The position numbers and the translations under genes are program-made. Shown here one piece after another: positions 54,655 through 62,930 of a stretch of 64,000 bases of DNA (position 1 is its first letter; each line of letters begins with the position of its first letter). The notes beneath the pieces are model-generated. The model was not told where the DNA came from, searched no databases, and worked only from the letters and a program-made list of their open reading frames with translations. Source of the DNA: Planctomycetota bacterium (GTDB lineage Bacteria; Planctomycetota; UBA1135; UBA2386). The stretch is taken from positions 4,768,001 to 4,832,000 of the forward strand of contig OZ245006.1 in assembly GCA_965223545.1 (NCBI GenBank). Direction: 5' to 3'.

Positions 54655-57129
54655 TCACTGCACCTGCTGGCGGTCGACGTTGGAGACCTCGACCACGTTG
54701 TTCTGGTTGTCGATCAGCACGGCGGTCGCGTCGATGACGAGGCCGGAGGCGATCTGCGCGATGGCGGCCGGGAACGTGAACGTGGTGTACGGATACACCG
54801 ACGGGCCGGCGTTGGTGAACGCGAACACGTTGCCGGCGCTCGGCGCGAAGCCGACGATGCTGGCGGTCAAGGCGTCGGCCTCGAGGCCGAGCACGTTGCC
54901 CATCGCCGCGTGGCGGCTGGTGTCGACGGACATCAAGGTGAAGCCGGTGCTCCAGCCACTGGCCGGGACGCCGGTGAGCGAGACGCGCAAATCACCGGGT
55001 TGGTTGGAGATCACATCCATCACCATGCCGGAGAGATCGCGTCCACCGCTGACGCCGCGGACCACCAGGGCGTAGTCGGCGTCGGTCGCCGCGGTCTCGA
55101 TGTGCGAGTCGGCGAGGATCTCGTCCGCCGTCACCTTCACGGTCCACACGCCGCTCTGCGGCGAGTTGAGCATGATCATTTCCTCGGTGTCGAGGCTGTT
55201 CTTGCCGGTCGGCGCCGCCGGGCTCACGTTGGAGTTGCCGAGGCCGAGGTTGCCGGCGTAGCGGGTGCCGTCCGGTGCGAAGGCCTCGACGTCGAGGTCG
55301 TTGAGGCGGTGGCGGCTCTGGTTGGCCGGGTTGCCCGGCGGCTCGGTGTAGGTGAGCGCGGCGCGGAACGCGTTGGTCGCCGGTGCGACATACACGAAGT
55401 AGGTCCGGCTCTGGCCCTGGCTCAGCACGTCGCGGGACGGGCCGGTGAGGGTGGCGTTCTCCTCGTCGATGACGAGCAGGTTGTCACGCTCGGCATACAT
55501 GTCGCCGATGTTGGGGAAGCCCCAGCCCTGCTGCACGCGCGTCGCGCGGTTGGTCGGCAGCGGGCGGGTGGTCGCCATCATCAGCGCCTTGACGGTCGAG
55601 GCGTGCGCGCGCAGGTTCCAGCGCTCCTGCCAGGTGCCACCGGGGTAGCCGAAAAGGCCGTCGCTGAACATCGTCATCGCCAGCAGGCCGAAGCCGTTGA
55701 CCATCGGGGTGGCGCCGGAGGTGCCACCGAAGTTGTTGGTGTAGCCGCTGTTGGTGCTGGTGGTGTTGATGCTGTCGTAGTAGCCGGTGAAGGTCACGCC
55801 GATGCGGCCGTCCGAGGCCGGGCCGATGCTGCCGGTGCGGCACCAGCAGTCGTCGGCCGGCGAGCTGTTGTTGAAGTGGTTGAAGCCACCGACGCTGTTG
55901 ATGTTCTTGGCCCACGCTTCGGGGCGCGACGGGCGCGCGCCGGCGTTGCTCTGGCTCTGCGTCTTCCAGATGTCCCAGTTGAACACCGACAGGTCGGCCT
56001 GCACCGAGGTCGAGGTGTAGCTCGTGGTGCGGCCACCGCCCCACGACTGCGTCGACGACAGCACCTGGTGGGTCTGCGTCAAGGTCTGCGCCAGGGTGTT
56101 GTAGCTGCCGACCGAGGCCGAGTAGTAGCCCTGGGCGAACGGGGCGCTGCCCTTGAAGAGCGCGCGGAGACCTTGGGCGAACACCTCGCCCGCGGTGTTG
56201 GTACCGTGCGTCGACGAGCCGTTGCGGGTCACCGAGATCGGCGCCGTGCGGTACGGGGCGCGGGCGGCGAACTCGGGGTGGCTCTGCTGGATGCCCTCGT
56301 TGACGTGCGTGCGGATGCCCTTGCCGTCGATCGGCGTGGCCAAGCCGTGCAGCGGCGCGACGCCGGCCTGGGCGAGCGCGTTGTTCATGTCGTACTCAGG
56401 TGCGGTCCAGCGGTCGATCCACATGACCGTGTTCTCGCTGGCCACCTGCAGCAGCTGGCCGCCGGTCAGGGTGGCGCTCAGCAGGGAGCCGTCGACCATC
56501 TCGACGGTGCCGCCGACGCGCTCGACCGCGCGCTCGAGCGCGTCCATGTCGGTGCGGTAGTTGGCCGCGATGATGTTGTAGCGGGTCGCCGGCAGGTCGG
56601 CGTCGGCGGTCAGGCTCGCGATGATCGCCGGCTCGAGCCGGTAGGCGGGGTGGTAGGCGGACACCGCGCGGACGAAGTCGAAGCCGGCGATCGCGGCCTC
56701 GGCGCTCCCGCTCATGCGGACCAGGTAGGCCTGGTTGGCCATCGGCACCAGGATCTCGGCACCGGCGGTGCTCATCGCGTCGCGGAACTCCTGCACCGGC
56801 GGGGTGTGGAACTGCACGAGGTGCAGCTCGTTGCTCCGCATGGCGGCCAGCAGGCCCGGCACCGGCGGGTCACCGATCGCCGGGTCGAAGTCGGCGAGCT
56901 GGGTGGAGATGGTGAACTTCGGCTGCGGCAGGGTGCGCCAGGAGGCGCCTCCGTCGCGGCTTACGCCGGCAACCCACTCGCCGTCCTGCATCTGCAGGCG
57001 GGTGATGGCGTCGCTGCCCGGGATGGCAAAGATCTGTGCGTTGGAGGCGGCGGCCTCTTGCGCGGTCGCAGCGGCACCGGCACCGGCTGCGTACAGAATG
57101 GATAGAGGGAGAACGAAGAGATTCCGCAT
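54655..57129 (-). CDS. Secreted S8 (subtilisin-like) serine peptidase
   Basis: Signal peptide, propeptide, HGTNTAG, SQSNAG, GGTSGATP, QGWGFP. Confidence 0.9.
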   Translation of the reverse strand: MRNLFVLPLSILYAAGAGAAATAQEAAASNAQIFAIPGSDAITRLQMQDGEWVAGVSRDGGASWRTLPQPKFTISTQLADFDPAIGDPPVPGLLAAMRSNELHLVQFHTPPVQEFRDAMSTAGAEILVPMANQAYLVRMSGSAEAAIAGFDFVRAVSAYHPAYRLEPAIIASLTADADLPATRYNIIAANYRTDMDALERAVERVGGTVEMVDGSLLSATLTGGQLLQVASENTVMWIDRWTAPEYDMNNALAQAGVAPLHGLATPIDGKGIRTHVNEGIQQSHPEFAARAPYRTAPISVTRNGSSTHGTNTAGEVFAQGLRALFKGSAPFAQGYYSASVGSYNTLAQTLTQTHQVLSSTQSWGGGRTTSYTSTSVQADLSVFNWDIWKTQSQSNAGARPSRPEAWAKNINSVGGFNHFNNSSPADDCWCRTGSIGPASDGRIGVTFTGYYDSINTTSTNSGYTNNFGGTSGATPMVNGFGLLAMTMFSDGLFGYPGGTWQERWNLRAHASTVKALMMATTRPLPTNRATRVQQGWGFPNIGDMYAERDNLLVIDEENATLTGPSRDVLSQGQSRTYFVYVAPATNAFRAALTYTEPPGNPANQSRHRLNDLDVEAFAPDGTRYAGNLGLGNSNVSPAAPTGKNSLDTEEMIMLNSPQSGVWTVKVTADEILADSHIETAATDADYALVVRGVSGGRDLSGMVMDVISNQPGDLRVSLTGVPASGWSTGFTLMSVDTSRHAAMGNVLGLEADALTASIVGFAPSAGNVFAFTNAGPSVYPYTTFTFPAAIAQIASGLVIDATAVLIDNQNNVVEVSNVDRQQVQ

Positions 57130-57303: not shown

Positions 57304-58200
57304 TCATTTTCGGGCGTCGAGCTCAGCGCGCACCGATCGGTACACGATCTCCTGGAAGCGATCGGGCTTCATGAACCCCGTGCCCCACGTCGCGTCCCAC
57401 TCGGCCGTGGGCTTTGCCGCCCGCACCTCGTCCAAGGTCTTGCCGTCGCGCACCAGATCGGCGAACCGCGCGTGGATCGTGCCCAGGACCTCGCGGTACT
57501 GCCGCAGCCCATCGCGGTCGGTCAGCTTGCCGTGGCCGGGAATGATCGCCGTCTCGCCGTCGGCGATCTCGAGCACGCGGTCGACGGCGGCGATCAGTCC
57601 GTGCAGAGTGCCCCCGCTGTCGAGATCGATGTAGGGAAAGGCGCCGTTGAAGAACACGTCGCCCATGTGGATCACGTTGCCGCGCCGAAACCACACGATC
57701 GCGTCCCCGTCGGTGTGCGCCGCCGAGACGTGGAAGATCTGCACGTCGTCGCCGTTGAGGTGCAGGGTCACGCCTCCCGCGAACGTCACCACGGGCAGCG
57801 CCTTGCTGTCGCCCGCCGCCCGCTCCCCGCCCTCGGCCAGCTGCTGCGCGGACATGCGCTTGCGCACGTTTTCATGCGCGACGATGACCGCGCCCGCGCG
57901 CCCGAACCGCTCGTTGCCGCCGGTGTGGTCGCCGTGGTGGTGCGTGTTGATCACGAACCGGATCGTAGTGTCCGTCAGCCGGGCAACCGCGGCGCGGATC
58001 TGCGGCACCATCGGCGCGAACTGGTCGTCGATCAAGAACGTCCCGTCCTCGCCGTAGCAGACACCGATGTTGCCGCCGCGCCCCTCGAGCATCGCCACCC
58101 CGTCCCGGATCGGCACGGTGTGAATCCGCGCGTCCCCCTGCGCGACCAACGGAGCGCACACGACCATCGCGACAGCCAGACAACTCGCAGAATGGAACAT
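57304..58200 (-). CDS. Exported MBL-fold metallo-hydrolase (cyclase-like)
   Basis: THHHGDHTGGN, AHTDGD, HMGD, IPGHG; signal peptide. Confidence 0.92.
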   Translation of the reverse strand: MFHSASCLAVAMVVCAPLVAQGDARIHTVPIRDGVAMLEGRGGNIGVCYGEDGTFLIDDQFAPMVPQIRAAVARLTDTTIRFVINTHHHGDHTGGNERFGRAGAVIVAHENVRKRMSAQQLAEGGERAAGDSKALPVVTFAGGVTLHLNGDDVQIFHVSAAHTDGDAIVWFRRGNVIHMGDVFFNGAFPYIDLDSGGTLHGLIAAVDRVLEIADGETAIIPGHGKLTDRDGLRQYREVLGTIHARFADLVRDGKTLDEVRAAKPTAEWDATWGTGFMKPDRFQEIVYRSVRAELDARK

Positions 58201-58266
58201 CCCCGAAGCCTACCGAAAGTACGGAGCCAGTCCTGCCCCGGCAGATTTGTCGGCCCTTCAGGGCAG

Positions 58267-58480
58267 GAAACTAGCCGCTGAGGAAGGGGGAGGGGAACGT
58301 GTGAGGGGCCCGGCAGCTACGCCCCCAATAGCCACTGGAGCACGTTTGCCCCAGAGCCAGTCTGGGTCCGAGTTGGCCATCCTTCACTGGTGAGGGGCAC
58401 GTCGCCGTGCCCACTCCCGCAGGTCAGATTCGTTTGATCGCCGCCTCGGGCCGGGCCCACCACAACAATGAGGATGAAGT
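58267..58480 (+). ncRNA. Candidate IS110 bridge/guide RNA region (identical copy at 60085-60298)
   Basis: ~214-nt structured non-coding left end (stems GAACGTGT/GCACGTTT, GGGCAC/GTGCCC); contains CAGGTCAG, identical to the IS right end. Confidence 0.55.
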
Positions 58481-59863
58481 ATGGCTGGGAAGAGCAGAAC
58501 GAGGAAGGGCAAGAAGCCCGCAGCGGAAGTATTGCCAGTCGTGAAGCCCAACGCCGCCGGAATCGACATCGGCAGCCGCGAGCACTGGGTGTGCGCAGCA
58601 GCACCCGACGGCAGTCGTCCGATCAAGCGATTCGGAACGACGACGCCCCAGCTAGAGGCGCTCGCGGACTGGCTGGAGGAGCTCGGAGTGCGATCCGTCG
58701 CGATGGAGAGCACCTATGTCTACTGGATTCCCGTCTACGAGCTACTCGAGTCGAGAGGCTTCGAGGTCATCCTCGCGAATGCCCGCGAGGTGAAGAACGT
58801 GCCGGGCCGCTCCAAGTCCGATGCCAGCGATTGCAGTTGGCTGCAGAAGCTACACACCTATGGCCTCATTCGCGCTTCGTTCCGGCCTCCGAAGGACATC
58901 TGTGCGTTGCGGACCCTGCAACGCCATGCCGCGTCTTTGATCGCGCAGCGCACGCGCCACACGCAGTTGATGCAGCGGTCACTGGATCAGATGAACGTGG
59001 CGATCCATCGCGCGGTAACGGACATCACCGGCAAGACCGGCCTCGCGATCATCCGCGCGATTCTCGCTGGTGAACGCGACCCTCGAGCGCTCGCCAGACT
59101 GCGTGATCCGCGCTGCAAGATCTCCGAGAAGGAGCTCGCGGATCACTTGCAAGGGACCTGGATCGAGGAGCACATCTTCACTCTCGCTTCGGGCTTGCGG
59201 ATGCTCGAGCACACCGACCACGAGATCGAGTCGGTCGAGAAGCGATTGATGGCGATGATCGAGGACCTGCAACCGGAGGAAGCCAAGACGGCCGACGTCC
59301 CCGAGCATCCAGACCCCCGCAAGGAGAGGAGCATCCGAACGAAGGGCGGCCGGGAGCTTCGCGATGCCCTCTGCCGGCTCGTCGGGTGTGATCTCACGCG
59401 AATCGACGGTATCAGCCCGAGCACGGCCATGATCGTGCTCACCGAGGTCGGCTACGACCTCGAAGCTTTCCCGACCGAGAAGCACTTCGTCTCCTGGCTA
59501 CGCCTGTGCCCACGTCAAGCCGTCTCGGGTGGAAAGCGCATCAAGAAGCACCGCAACAACATCGCGGTCAGCAGGATCGCCACGGTCCTCCGGATGGCCG
59601 CCCTGTCCCTCCAACGTACTCAGACAGCTCTCGGCGCACACTTCCGCAAGATCGCCCGCGCGAAGGACGGCAACGTCGCCATCTTTGCCATCGCCCGCAA
59701 ACTGGCCCTGCTCATCTACCGCATGCTGAAGTTCGGCCAGGACTACGTAGACGAAGGCGCCAAGGCCTACGAGGAGCGCTTCACCCAGCGACGCATCGTC
59801 GGACTCCGACAGAACGCTAAATCCCTCGGGTACAAGCTCATACCGATCGCCGAGGCTGGGTGA
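58481..59863 (+). CDS. IS110-family DEDD transposase/recombinase
   Basis: GIDIG, AMEST, KSDASD (DEDD); IDGIS, SGG with catalytic-type Ser, AIARKLA. Confidence 0.96.
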   Translation: MAGKSRTRKGKKPAAEVLPVVKPNAAGIDIGSREHWVCAAAPDGSRPIKRFGTTTPQLEALADWLEELGVRSVAMESTYVYWIPVYELLESRGFEVILANAREVKNVPGRSKSDASDCSWLQKLHTYGLIRASFRPPKDICALRTLQRHAASLIAQRTRHTQLMQRSLDQMNVAIHRAVTDITGKTGLAIIRAILAGERDPRALARLRDPRCKISEKELADHLQGTWIEEHIFTLASGLRMLEHTDHEIESVEKRLMAMIEDLQPEEAKTADVPEHPDPRKERSIRTKGGRELRDALCRLVGCDLTRIDGISPSTAMIVLTEVGYDLEAFPTEKHFVSWLRLCPRQAVSGGKRIKKHRNNIAVSRIATVLRMAALSLQRTQTALGAHFRKIARAKDGNVAIFAIARKLALLIYRMLKFGQDYVDEGAKAYEERFTQRRIVGLRQNAKSLGYKLIPIAEAG

Positions 59864-59871
59864 GTTTCAGG

Positions 59872-60018
59872 TCAGCAGACACCGATGTTGCCGCCGCGCC
59901 CCTCGAGCATCGCCACCCCGTCCCGGATCGGCACGGTGTGAATCCGCGCGTCCCCCTGCGCGACCAACGGAGCGCACACGACCATCGCGACAGCCAGACA
60001 ACTCGCAGAATGGAACAT
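59872..60018 (-). pseudogene. Truncated duplicate of the first 48 codons of the MBL hydrolase gene
   Basis: Copy of 58056-58200; a TGA is created at the IS junction. Confidence 0.85.
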
Positions 60019-60084
60019 CCCCGAAGCCTACCGAAAGTACGGAGCCAGTCCTGCCCCGGCAGATTTGTCGGCCCTTCAGGGCAG

Positions 60085-61693
60085 GAAACTAGCCGCTGAG
60101 GAAGGGGGAGGGGAACGTGTGAGGGGCCCGGCAGCTACGCCCCCAATAGCCACTGGAGCACGTTTGCCCCAGAGCCAGTCTGGGTCCGAGTTGGCCATCC
60201 TTCACTGGTGAGGGGCACGTCGCCGTGCCCACTCCCGCAGGTCAGATTCGTTTGATCGCCGCCTCGGGCCGGGCCCACCACAACAATGAGGATGAAGTAT
60301 GGCTGGGAAGAGCAGAACGAGGAAGGGCAAGAAGCCCGCAGCGGAAGTATTGCCAGTCGTGAAGCCCAACGCCGCCGGAATCGACATCGGCAGCCGCGAG
60401 CACTGGGTGTGCGCAGCAGCACCCGACGGCAGTCGTCCGATCAAGCGATTCGGAACGACGACGCCCCAGCTAGAGGCGCTCGCGGACTGGCTGGAGGAGC
60501 TCGGAGTGCGATCCGTCGCGATGGAGAGCACCTATGTCTACTGGATTCCCGTCTACGAGCTACTCGAGTCGAGAGGCTTCGAGGTCATCCTCGCGAATGC
60601 CCGCGAGGTGAAGAACGTGCCGGGCCGCTCCAAGTCCGATGCCAGCGATTGCAGTTGGCTGCAGAAGCTACACACCTATGGCCTCATTCGCGCTTCGTTC
60701 CGGCCTCCGAAGGACATCTGTGCGTTGCGGACCCTGCAACGCCATGCCGCGTCTTTGATCGCGCAGCGCACGCGCCACACGCAGTTGATGCAGCGGTCAC
60801 TGGATCAGATGAACGTGGCGATCCATCGCGCGGTAACGGACATCACCGGCAAGACCGGCCTCGCGATCATCCGCGCGATTCTCGCTGGTGAACGCGACCC
60901 TCGAGCGCTCGCCAGACTGCGTGATCCGCGCTGCAAGATCTCCGAGAAGGAGCTCGCGGATCACTTGCAAGGGACCTGGATCGAGGAGCACATCTTCACT
61001 CTCGCTTCGGGCTTGCGGATGCTCGAGCACACCGACCACGAGATCGAGTCGGTCGAGAAGCGATTGATGGCGATGATCGAGGACCTGCAACCGGAGGAAG
61101 CCAAGACGGCCGACGTCCCCGAGCATCCAGACCCCCGCAAGGAGAGGAGCATCCGAACGAAGGGCGGCCGGGAGCTTCGCGATGCCCTCTGCCGGCTCGT
61201 CGGGTGTGATCTCACGCGAATCGACGGTATCAGCCCGAGCACGGCCATGATCGTGCTCACCGAGGTCGGCTACGACCTCGAAGCTTTCCCGACCGAGAAG
61301 CACTTCGTCTCCTGGCTACGCCTGTGCCCACGTCAAGCCGTCTCGGGTGGAAAGCGCATCAAGAAGCACCGCAACAACATCGCGGTCAGCAGGATCGCCA
61401 CGGTCCTCCGGATGGCCGCCCTGTCCCTCCAACGTACTCAGACAGCTCTCGGCGCACACTTCCGCAAGATCGCCCGCGCGAAGGACGGCAACGTCGCCAT
61501 CTTTGCCATCGCCCGCAAACTGGCCCTGCTCATCTACCGCATGCTGAAGTTCGGCCAGGACTACGTAGACGAAGGCGCCAAGGCCTACGAGGAGCGCTTC
61601 ACCCAGCGACGCATCGTCGGACTCCGACAGAACGCTAAATCCCTCGGGTACAAGCTCATACCGATCGCCGAGGCTGGGTGAGTTTCAGGTCAG
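60085..61693 (+). mobile_element. IS110-family insertion sequence, copy 2
   Basis: Same as copy 1; ends GAGTTTCAGGTCAG. Confidence 0.85.
60299..61681 (+). CDS. IS110-family DEDD transposase/recombinase (second copy)
   Basis: Translation identical to 58481..59863. Confidence 0.96.
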   Translation: MAGKSRTRKGKKPAAEVLPVVKPNAAGIDIGSREHWVCAAAPDGSRPIKRFGTTTPQLEALADWLEELGVRSVAMESTYVYWIPVYELLESRGFEVILANAREVKNVPGRSKSDASDCSWLQKLHTYGLIRASFRPPKDICALRTLQRHAASLIAQRTRHTQLMQRSLDQMNVAIHRAVTDITGKTGLAIIRAILAGERDPRALARLRDPRCKISEKELADHLQGTWIEEHIFTLASGLRMLEHTDHEIESVEKRLMAMIEDLQPEEAKTADVPEHPDPRKERSIRTKGGRELRDALCRLVGCDLTRIDGISPSTAMIVLTEVGYDLEAFPTEKHFVSWLRLCPRQAVSGGKRIKKHRNNIAVSRIATVLRMAALSLQRTQTALGAHFRKIARAKDGNVAIFAIARKLALLIYRMLKFGQDYVDEGAKAYEERFTQRRIVGLRQNAKSLGYKLIPIAEAG

Positions 61694-61712
61694 GCTCCGT
61701 TTCATCACCTTG

Positions 61713-62930
61713 CTAGCCGCCGGATCCAAGCAGTTCGGTCAGCGCCGCCGCCAACTCCTCGTACTGGGAGAGGTCGTTGTACAGCTGCGCCGAAATGCGC
61801 AACGCCAGCCGCGGTGGCGCGGGCCACGGAAACACCGGCACCTGGATGCCGAAGTGCTTGGTCAGCGCGTGCCCCAGGGGCTCGACGTGCTGCCAGCTCC
61901 GCGGCCTGCTCGCGGTCGCGCCCGGCAACGGCAGGGTCGCCAGCGAGCCGATCAGCGCCTCTGGCGCCGGCGGCTCGATCTCGAGCGCGGCACAGAGGTG
62001 CGCGCGCGCCGCGAGCGCCAGCGCGCGGTTCTGAGCCCGCACCGCTGGCCAACCGCCGGGCAACAGACCGCCGATGCAGTCGATCGCATCGGGGACCGTC
62101 AGATACGCAGTGGGGTCGTGCGTGCCGGTCCAGTCGAACTCGGCGAGGAAGCGCGACCGGTCCGTCCGCTTGCCGCTGGCGCCGTGGCTGATCACGGTCG
62201 GTCGGACCTGCGCCTGCAGGTCACGCCGCACCCAGAGAAAGCCCGCCCCCTTGGGCGCGCAGATCCACTTGTGGCAGTTGCCGGTGTAGTAGGCGGCTCC
62301 CAGCGCGCGAAGGTCGAGCGCCAGCATGCCCGGGGCGTGCGCCCCGTCGACGAGTGTCTCGACGCCGCGCTCGCGCAACTCGCCGATCAGGATCTCCAGC
62401 GGCAAGACCAGCGCCGTCGGACTGGTGACGTGGTCGAGCAGCGCGAGTCGCGTCCGCTCGTTTGTCGCGGCGAGCACGACGTCGACGATCTCACCTGGGT
62501 CGCGGACTGGAAACGGCAGATCGACCACCGTGATCGTGGCGTCGTGCCGCGCCGCCACCTGGTCGAGCGCGTTGCGACACGCGTTGTAGGCATGGTTGGT
62601 GACCAGCAGGTCGTCGCCGGTCGACAACGGCATCGACTGCAGCACCGCGTTGACGCCCGTCGTGGCGTTGGCGACGAACGCGATGTCTTCGGCGTCGGCG
62701 CCGACGAAGTCGGCCAGCTTCCCGCGTGCTCGATCCAGCGCGGGCTCGAGCGTGTGCAGCATGAAGTGGACCGGCTCGCGCTCGAGCTCGTCACGCCAGC
62801 GCTGCTGCGCGTCGAGCACCTCGCGCGGACACGCACCGAACGAGCCGTGATTGAGGAACGTCACCTCGGGATCGAGGCTCCACAGGCGGCGCAGCCGCGC
62901 CGTCGTCGCGGGATCGAGCAGTGATGTCAC
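61713..62930 (-). CDS. Class V PLP-dependent aminotransferase (isopenicillin N epimerase / C-S lyase-like)
   Basis: FLNHGSFG, NATTG, DHVTSPTA, VDGAHAPG, GNCHKW. Confidence 0.92.
   Translation of the reverse strand: MTSLLDPATTARLRRLWSLDPEVTFLNHGSFGACPREVLDAQQRWRDELEREPVHFMLHTLEPALDRARGKLADFVGADAEDIAFVANATTGVNAVLQSMPLSTGDDLLVTNHAYNACRNALDQVAARHDATITVVDLPFPVRDPGEIVDVVLAATNERTRLALLDHVTSPTALVLPLEILIGELRERGVETLVDGAHAPGMLALDLRALGAAYYTGNCHKWICAPKGAGFLWVRRDLQAQVRPTVISHGASGKRTDRSRFLAEFDWTGTHDPTAYLTVPDAIDCIGGLLPGGWPAVRAQNRALALAARAHLCAALEIEPPAPEALIGSLATLPLPGATASRPRSWQHVEPLGHALTKHFGIQVPVFPWPAPPRLALRISAQLYNDLSQYEELAAALTELLGSGG

What the first reader, a model, noticed from the sequence alone, without database searches (positions are those of the whole stretch)
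58056..61693. IS110 tandem duplication that carries ~209 bp of flanking host DNA, joined at the IS right end
Seen: the structure is host-IS-[copy of 58058-58266]-IS-host. The novel junction fuses the IS right end (...TTTCAGGTCAG) to a site inside the MBL gene (CCGTAG/CAGAC) and shares only the AG of the core. Knowledge: IS110 elements recombine at a short core through circular intermediates and do not make long TSDs. Inference: the recombinase paired the right end with an off-target AG site ~210 bp beyond its left end, either by imprecise excision of a cargo-carrying circle that reintegrated or by sister-chromosome exchange. This would be a natural snapshot of IS110 flank capture and amplification.
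Basis: partly seen in the sequence, partly recalled or inferred. Interest (0 to 1): 0.8.

Follow-up and report, generated by a model that had tools for sequence, protein, structure and literature searches.

The report
Jumping gene duplicates neighbouring host DNA
An RNA-guided jumping gene appears to have joined its right end to a wrong spot just upstream, doubling itself plus a short piece of a neighbouring host gene; this is a neat natural example of a sloppy one-sided reaction recently described for this family, not a new kind of system.

Summary
The genome's 23 copies and guide covariation in homologs put the IS110 at 58231-59875 (1645 bp, AG core). The duplicated host DNA is therefore 173 bp (58058-58230), not 209. 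All 23 left ends and 22 of 23 right ends sit in a REP palindrome. The one exception is this junction, where the right end (LD arm plus AG) joins an AG inside an MBL-fold gene that matches no guide arm. A different IS110 in the same genome shows the same geometry: a 183-bp duplication, LD end, AG overlap. Best reading: a one-sided, LD-initiated strand transfer, fixed as a tandem by replication or by recombination of a 1818-bp circle. 2026 preprints describe this class (LD-only tandem boundaries, half-match recombination). Reads do not confirm it: no contig of four runs crosses the junction, but a control short link is missing too, so the test is uninformative. The cargo has not moved elsewhere and encodes only a 48-residue stub. 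New member of a known kind; modest interest.

The parts
57304..58200 (-). Intact host MBL-fold hydrolase gene (298 aa); its first 143 nt lie in the duplicated segment
   Evidence: PF00753; below every beta-lactamase cut-off shown in NCBIfam
58056..58057 (+). Off-target AG used as partner core; its flanks match no guide arm
   Evidence: best arm 2/7; 97.6% of 249 nearby AG sites score as well or better
58058..58230 (+). Host segment X, original copy (173 bp: MBL 5' part, intergenic DNA, left REP half, AG core)
58215..58230 (+). Left half of the REP target (LT arm) plus AG core at 58229-58230
58231..59875 (+). IS110 copy 1 (1645 bp including right-end core), major haplotype
   Evidence: 23 full copies, 12 variable columns
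58257..58266 (+).
58353..58360 (+). Predicted left target guide of the bridge RNA
   Evidence: own end matches 4-5 of 5 in 10 of 12 elements versus 8 of 132 cross pairs
58419..58427 (+). Predicted left donor guide of the bridge RNA; matches the IS right end
58481..59863 (+). IS110 recombinase, copy 1 (460 aa; D29, E76, D114, D117, S349)
   Evidence: NF033542 247.9 bits, cut-off 140
59867..59875 (+). LD arm and AG core at the novel junction (LD-AG joined to host X)
   Evidence: the only 1 of 23 right ends not followed by the REP right half
59876..60048 (+). Host segment X, duplicated copy (173 bp)
59872..60018 (-). Duplicated MBL start: 48-residue stub ending at a stop created at the junction
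60049..61693 (+). IS110 copy 2, identical to copy 1; recombinase 60299-61681
61694..61707 (+). Right half of the REP target (RT), canonical right junction
61713..62930 (-). Host class-V aminotransferase gene, unique right flank
   Evidence: PF00266

Best explanation
A by-product of IS110 copy-out by a one-sided (LD-only) reaction. Shown: the element sits in a REP between two host genes, with ends LT-AG-RD and LD-AG-RT, and its bridge RNA has guides matching LT and LD. Inferred: the recombinase engaged the right end through the donor guide and cut the top strand after AG. It joined that end not to its own left end (a 1645-bp circle) but to a strand cut after an unrelated AG 173 bp further upstream. 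Inferred: if the partner was the sister chromosome, replication gave the tandem directly; if it was the same molecule, a 1818-bp circle formed and re-entered the preserved donor locus by homologous recombination. Both routes give host-X-IS-X-IS-host with one LD-AG-X junction. The event is recent, probably neutral (MBL gene intact, extra copy a 48-residue stub) and likely to collapse back by recombination.
For: Breakpoint exactly at the core; 22 of 23 other right ends canonical. AG is the family core by covariation. Chance of that placement about 1.4e-5, or 0.002 conditional. Independent second case in an IS1111-type element at C1:7063615: LD end, AG overlap, 183-bp duplication. Catalytic residues intact and copies nearly identical, so the element is recently active. 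Hu et al. (10.64898/2026.08.14.744561; sections 8-10) report 437 whole-module tandem duplications, repeat-unit boundaries with almost exclusively LD matches, and, for partial circles, an unmatched side no better than chance. Xie et al. (10.64898/2026.08.31.748434) show top-of-pathway single-strand excision and half-match recombination in vitro. CazIS110 gave tandem repeats in 3 of 96 colonies.
Against: No read-level confirmation: no contig in 4 of 4 runs crosses the junction, and the flank-X-left-end path is one unbroken contig in each; the control indicates such short links are dropped, but it is a single link seen in two runs. In the half-match experiments I read, the partner DNA carried one matching arm, whereas this partner has only the core, so how the enzyme would cut there is unexplained. 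No orthologous empty or single-copy locus was found. Perfect identity leaves no trace of the route.
Confidence: 0.6

Rival explanations
1. Recombinase nick, host repair: the enzyme only nicks at the right-end core, and the free 3' end ending in AG switches template to a 2-bp microhomology upstream and primes re-replication of 1818 bp.
For: Explains why the partner needs no guide match; gives the same junction; LT-RT rejoining is inefficient in IS621, leaving free ends.
Against: A 3-base match lies 3 bp downstream of the site used and was not used; both genome cases share exactly the 2-bp core, the enzyme's own cut register.
Confidence: 0.12
2. Two steps: a normal IS circle inserted off-target at the AG in the MBL gene (host-IS-X-IS), then recombination between IS copies on sisters, or an assembly mosaic of two haplotypes, restored the intact left flank.
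For: Gives the identical final sequence; off-target insertions with no guide match exist for IS621 (27 sites classed 'none'); restoring the MBL gene could be favoured.
Against: All 23 left ends are in REP halves although 1959 sites carry the LT-core 7-mer, so targeting is strict; no joint skipping 58058-58230 was listed in 4 runs (weak for the same reason as above); cannot explain the internal 183-bp case.
Confidence: 0.1
3. The junction is biological but belongs to an extrachromosomal 1818-bp circle or a minor subpopulation, and the assembler threaded it into the chromosome as a tandem.
For: No contig shows the junction; CazIS110 tandems are transient; 100% identity.
Against: The assembly (2 contigs, 8.07-Mb chromosome piece) resolves 23 near-identical copies, including an adjacent pair of different haplotypes, which implies reads spanning several kb (inference).
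Confidence: 0.1
4. Pure assembly or chimeric-read artefact with no biological junction.
For: Copies are identical; junction unseen; all four runs come from one study, so nothing independent supports it.
Against: An artefact has no reason to break at the exact core with AG on the partner side, twice, in two IS110 families; the repeat boundary an assembler would see extends into the REP half, not the core.
Confidence: 0.08

Closest known systems
LD-only tandem expansion of IS110 loci (Hu et al., bioRxiv 10.64898/2026.08.14.744561)
   Same: Tandem duplication of a complete module; repeat boundary keeps only the LD match; they propose LD-initiated reactions resolve in place and duplicate the intervening segment.
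   Different: Here the unit runs 173 bp past the left end into the adjacent chromosome and a host gene. Their cargo is mostly plasmid-derived, chromosomal a minor share. The sections I read do not single out adjacent-flank duplication; figures and supplements were not visible and may show it.
IS621 half-match, copy-out recombination (Xie et al., bioRxiv 10.64898/2026.08.31.748434)
   Same: Single-strand excision that leaves the donor intact; reaction proceeds with partial guide matching at a dinucleotide core.
   Different: Their partners carry one matching arm; this partner has core only. Core is AG, not CT; recombinase is a distant relative (E 2.3e-10).
CazIS110-1 tandem cargo repeats (bioRxiv 10.1101/2025.10.25.684509)
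   Same: Tandem repeat at the donor locus as a transient by-product, 3 of 96 colonies.
   Different: Those arose in an assay selecting the precise LD-RD junction; here the junction is LD-host.
REP-targeting IS110s ISPpu10 and ISPpu9
   Same: Insert into REP palindromes; ISPpu10 marks a 120.2-kb head-to-tail amplification.
   Different: The ISPpu10 amplification boundary is a new insertion into a second REP (canonical target); here no target site is involved at the junction. ISPpu9 seen only as a search listing.
IS91 one-ended transposition
   Same: One fixed end, one variable end, adjacent DNA carried along (analogy drawn).
   Different: Rolling-circle HUH enzyme (recalled), unrelated chemistry.

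Membership tests
IS110 family | DEDD RuvC-like domain plus C-terminal Tnp domain with catalytic serine | tested here: met
   PF01548 and PF02371; NF033542 above cut-off; D29, E76, D114, D117, S349 align with the IS621 chain
IS110 family | Recombination at a short core, no target-site duplication, no terminal inverted repeats | tested here: met
   Filled sites split the REP at AG with one AG at each end versus empty sites
IS110 family | Bridge RNA with left target and left donor guides in a non-coding end | tested here: met
   Guide-end covariation in homologs; ends were picked by best match, so the cross-pair control is the fair test; expression not tested
IS110 family | Right target and right donor guides | tested here: inconclusive
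   No covarying column for RD (11 elements) or RT (8 elements); 54-271 of 300 permutations reached the observed value; low power
IS110 family | Circular intermediate | not testable with these tools
   Only simplified contigs were available; no circle joint listed
IS110 group versus IS1111 group | Long left end holding the RNA, short right end (criterion recalled) | tested here: met
   Left end 250 bp, right end 12 bp: IS110 group
LD-only tandem expansion (Hu et al. 2026) | Adjacent same-strand repeat, at least 95% identity, unit at least 50 bp | tested here: met
   1818-bp unit, 100% (criteria; their TRF and ULTRA validation not run)
LD-only tandem expansion (Hu et al. 2026) | Boundary keeps LD, other side no better than chance | tested here: met
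   LD intact; partner arms 1-2 of 7
LD-only tandem expansion (Hu et al. 2026) | Long-read support and empty-versus-filled comparison | tested here: inconclusive
   uninformative; no orthologous empty locus found
Cargo-carrying (expanded, mobile) IS110 | IS plus cargo found at a new site | tested here: not met
   Segment X occurs only in these 2 copies; 0 of the 21 other IS copies carry it
Composite transposon or long target-site duplication | Both IS copies bounded by canonical insertion junctions | tested here: not met
   Copy 1 has no RT; the pair has two identical LT junctions and one RT

The most novel reading that the evidence does not exclude
In this AG-core IS110 subfamily no right-hand guides are detectable, so the sequence after the core may barely be read. 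The new LD-AG-X junction could then serve as a working donor site, letting the element paste itself plus the adjacent chromosomal flank into any of about 90 free REP sites. That would make core-only over-reach past the left end a route for in-cis capture of neighbouring chromosome, caught here at its first step, with two such junctions in one genome.
Probability: 0.15. Interest if true: 0.6.

Novelty: new member of a known kind. Interest (0 to 1): 0.3.

Why it matters
If real, it is a clean natural substrate for an open mechanistic question: how an IS110 recombinase anchored at LD picks a partner that offers only the core dinucleotide. It has 21 canonical sister copies as controls and a second family showing the same behaviour in one genome. 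That bears on off-target duplications by bridge-recombinase editors and on how IS110 loci begin to gain cargo. It carries no functional cargo and the class is already described, which caps its importance.

Tried and rejected
209-bp cargo and left end at 58267: rejected. Long target-site duplication or composite transposon: rejected, only one RT junction. Guide-directed off-target site: rejected, best arm 2 of 7. Read check: 4 runs, one study, at most 2 samples, contigs only, laid on 57336-59935. Depth in the last two bins equals the IS contig alone (15.1, 31.6, 14.3, 163.4 observed versus 15.1, 31.5, 13.3, 160.0 expected, previous bin unchanged), so no junction contig; 66 records and 22 loose ends were not displayed. 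A simulated k=31 graph predicts a branch at 58222 from a 47-word link between two adjacent, different-haplotype copies; the piece 58219-58253 is unbroken in X2 and X4, so that link is missing too and absence proves nothing. IS-to-flank depth ratios 16.9, 24.1, 15.5, 28.1 only roughly fit 22-23 copies. Empty or single-copy ortholog: only distant MBL homologs in 30 relatives; no hit in the metagenome collection. DNA relatives of the IS: 1 of 300 other genomes of the order. Similar duplications around homologs: none among 75 loci, 1 unrelated 69-bp repeat; many loci are short contigs. Third IS110 family (11 copies): no duplication at its ends. Right guides: not found. Free folding of the left end was weak, z -2.07. 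One search ended in a script error of mine for the target guide and was redone, where L009 and L015 scored low because their true ends lie at the contig edge (visible); they were kept in the count. Earlier scan notes: nothing. Literature searches; none of the passages read describes adjacent chromosomal flank duplication explicitly, but bioRxiv supplements and figures were not visible.
Full report
Observation. Window 58056-59875 is repeated exactly at 59874-61693: 1820 bp, period 1818, 100% identity, with a 2-bp AG overlap. Each copy holds a 460-aa recombinase with the DEDD and Tnp domains, above the NCBIfam IS110 cut-off, with residues D29, E76, D114, D117 and S349 aligning to the IS621 chain. 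The flanks are an MBL-fold hydrolase gene (57304-58200, minus strand; below all beta-lactamase cut-offs shown) and a class-V aminotransferase gene (61713-62930).

True ends. The genome (8.1 Mb, 2 contigs) holds 23 full copies in a few haplotypes with 12 variable columns. All 23 begin after the left half of a palindromic REP and 22 of 23 end before its right half. The uninterrupted 11-base centre of the palindrome occurs at 94 other places. Homologs show a bridge-RNA-like left end in which one segment tracks each element's left target arm and ends in an invariant AG: own end matched at 4-5 of 5 bases in 10 of 12 elements, against 8 of 132 cross pairs. A second segment tracks the right end of the element. 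So the core is AG, the element is 58231-59875 (1645 bp), and the duplicated host piece X is 58058-58230 (173 bp).

The junction. The right end of copy 1 is the single non-canonical end of 46. It is the intact LD arm plus AG, followed by MBL coding sequence that also follows an AG in its original place. The partner site has no arm match: 1, 2, 1 and 1 of 7 against LT, LD, RD and RT, and 97.6% of 249 AG sites in the preceding 5 kb score as well or better. A random junction would fall on an IS110 right-end core with probability about 1.4e-5, or 0.002 if it had to lie in this IS. A genome-wide scan flagged 8 exact head-to-tail repeats; 6 are arrays of 3 or more units, and the only other two-unit case (C1:7063615, 183 bp) is the right end of a different, IS1111-type IS110 joined at its AG core to an internal AG 183 bp upstream. 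Two of two such duplications ending at IS110 LD cores is the strongest argument that the enzyme, not the assembler, made the junctions.

Reads. Four runs of one study hold the stretch, all kept as simplified contigs. None crosses 59875/59876, and the unique flank runs unbroken through X into the IS in all four. This counts against the tandem only if such links survive simplification. A simulated graph of the assembly shows the junction as a 28-word single-copy link beside a 23-copy repeat, and offers a control: a 47-word link between two adjacent copies of different haplotype that should split the piece at 58222. That piece is unbroken in X2 and X4, while a long single-copy branch at 58224 is kept. 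Short links are therefore lost, and the test is uninformative; it rests on one control link. No empty or single-copy ortholog was found.

Mechanism. Shown: ends, core, left guides, junction position, lack of partner match. Inferred: an LD-anchored top-strand cut whose 3' end was joined to a strand opened after the upstream AG, either on the sister chromosome (tandem after replication) or in cis (1818-bp circle, then homologous re-entry). Identical copies cannot separate these. Rivals: nick-primed template switching at the 2-bp microhomology (0.12); off-target insertion followed by recombination or haplotype mosaic (0.10); real circle or minor variant threaded in by the assembler (0.10); pure artefact (0.08). 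Consequence: the original MBL gene is intact, the duplicate start gives a 48-residue stub stopped at the junction, and X occurs nowhere else. It is a local duplication, not demonstrated cargo transport.

Known work. Hu et al. (10.64898/2026.08.14.744561; I read the abstract, introduction, first results section, sections 7-10 and 26, and passages) report 437 tandem duplications of complete modules and 468 of non-coding units. Their repeat boundaries keep almost exclusively LD matches, and they propose that LD-initiated reactions resolve in place and duplicate the intervening segment. Both cases in this genome fit. Xie et al. (10.64898/2026.08.31.748434; parts 1-4 of 6) show single-strand copy-out and half-match recombination for IS621, though their partners carried one matching arm. 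The CazIS110 preprint (10.1101/2025.10.25.684509; passages and section 6) found transient tandem repeats in 3 of 96 colonies. Na et al. (10.64898/2026.03.19.712850; abstract and passages) describe REP-targeted ISPpu10 at amplification boundaries made by canonical insertions. Figures and bioRxiv supplements were not visible and may already show adjacent-flank duplication.

Verdict. The structure is an IS110 (membership met on enzyme, core and left guides) and a member of the LD-only tandem-duplication class, pending read support. Its particular features are that the unit reaches past the left end into a host gene, that the partner offers the core only, and that no right-hand guides were detected in this subfamily (low power). 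Interest 0.3. The boldest reading left open is that the LD-AG-X junction is itself a usable donor, making this the first step of in-cis flank capture (probability 0.15, interest 0.6).

Noticed in passing
G000 C1:7063615-7063982: A second IS110 (IS1111-type, 4 copies) has its terminal 183 bp duplicated in tandem, right end joined at the AG core to an internal AG; that copy is also interrupted by another multicopy element near 7065012.
   Followed up: yes
G000 C1:3912820-3917193: Two inverted copies of the IS sit in REP halves on either side of a Y1 (RAYT-like) transposase gene at 3914571-3914900, suggesting the target REP belongs to that gene and forming a composite-like unit.
   Followed up: partly
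G000 C1:1714943-1718282: Two copies of different haplotype in direct orientation, 43 bp apart, each inserted canonically into one REP of a doublet; used as the control.
   Followed up: yes
G000 C1:988112-988243: Internally deleted relic of the IS: 114 bp of the gene start fused to the last 18 bp of the right end, followed by a degenerate, non-canonical sequence.
   Followed up: partly
window 58267-58271 and 59864-59868: A 5-base inverted pair, 37 bp inside the left end and at the start of the right end, looks conserved and in some homologs changes together (seen by eye; not tested).
   Followed up: no
window 58231-58480 and loci L009-L020, L053: No right target or right donor guide covaries in this AG-core subfamily, yet all 23 insertions chose REP sites among 1959 sites with the left-arm 7-mer; the palindrome's structure may supply the specificity, as reported for ISPpu10.
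   Followed up: partly
G000 C1:1015085, 2159174, 4330729 and several empty REPs: Short tandem duplications of REP halves or REP plus spacer (about 15-40 bp), at both filled and empty sites, so probably REP dynamics rather than the IS.
   Followed up: no
G000 C1, many places (e.g. 5215808, 6437461): A second, about 195-bp repeat family (56-61 copies) forms arrays and is the target of the other two IS110 families.
   Followed up: partly
window 54655-57129: Secreted-type subtilase (S8) gene of 824 aa downstream of the MBL gene.
   Followed up: no
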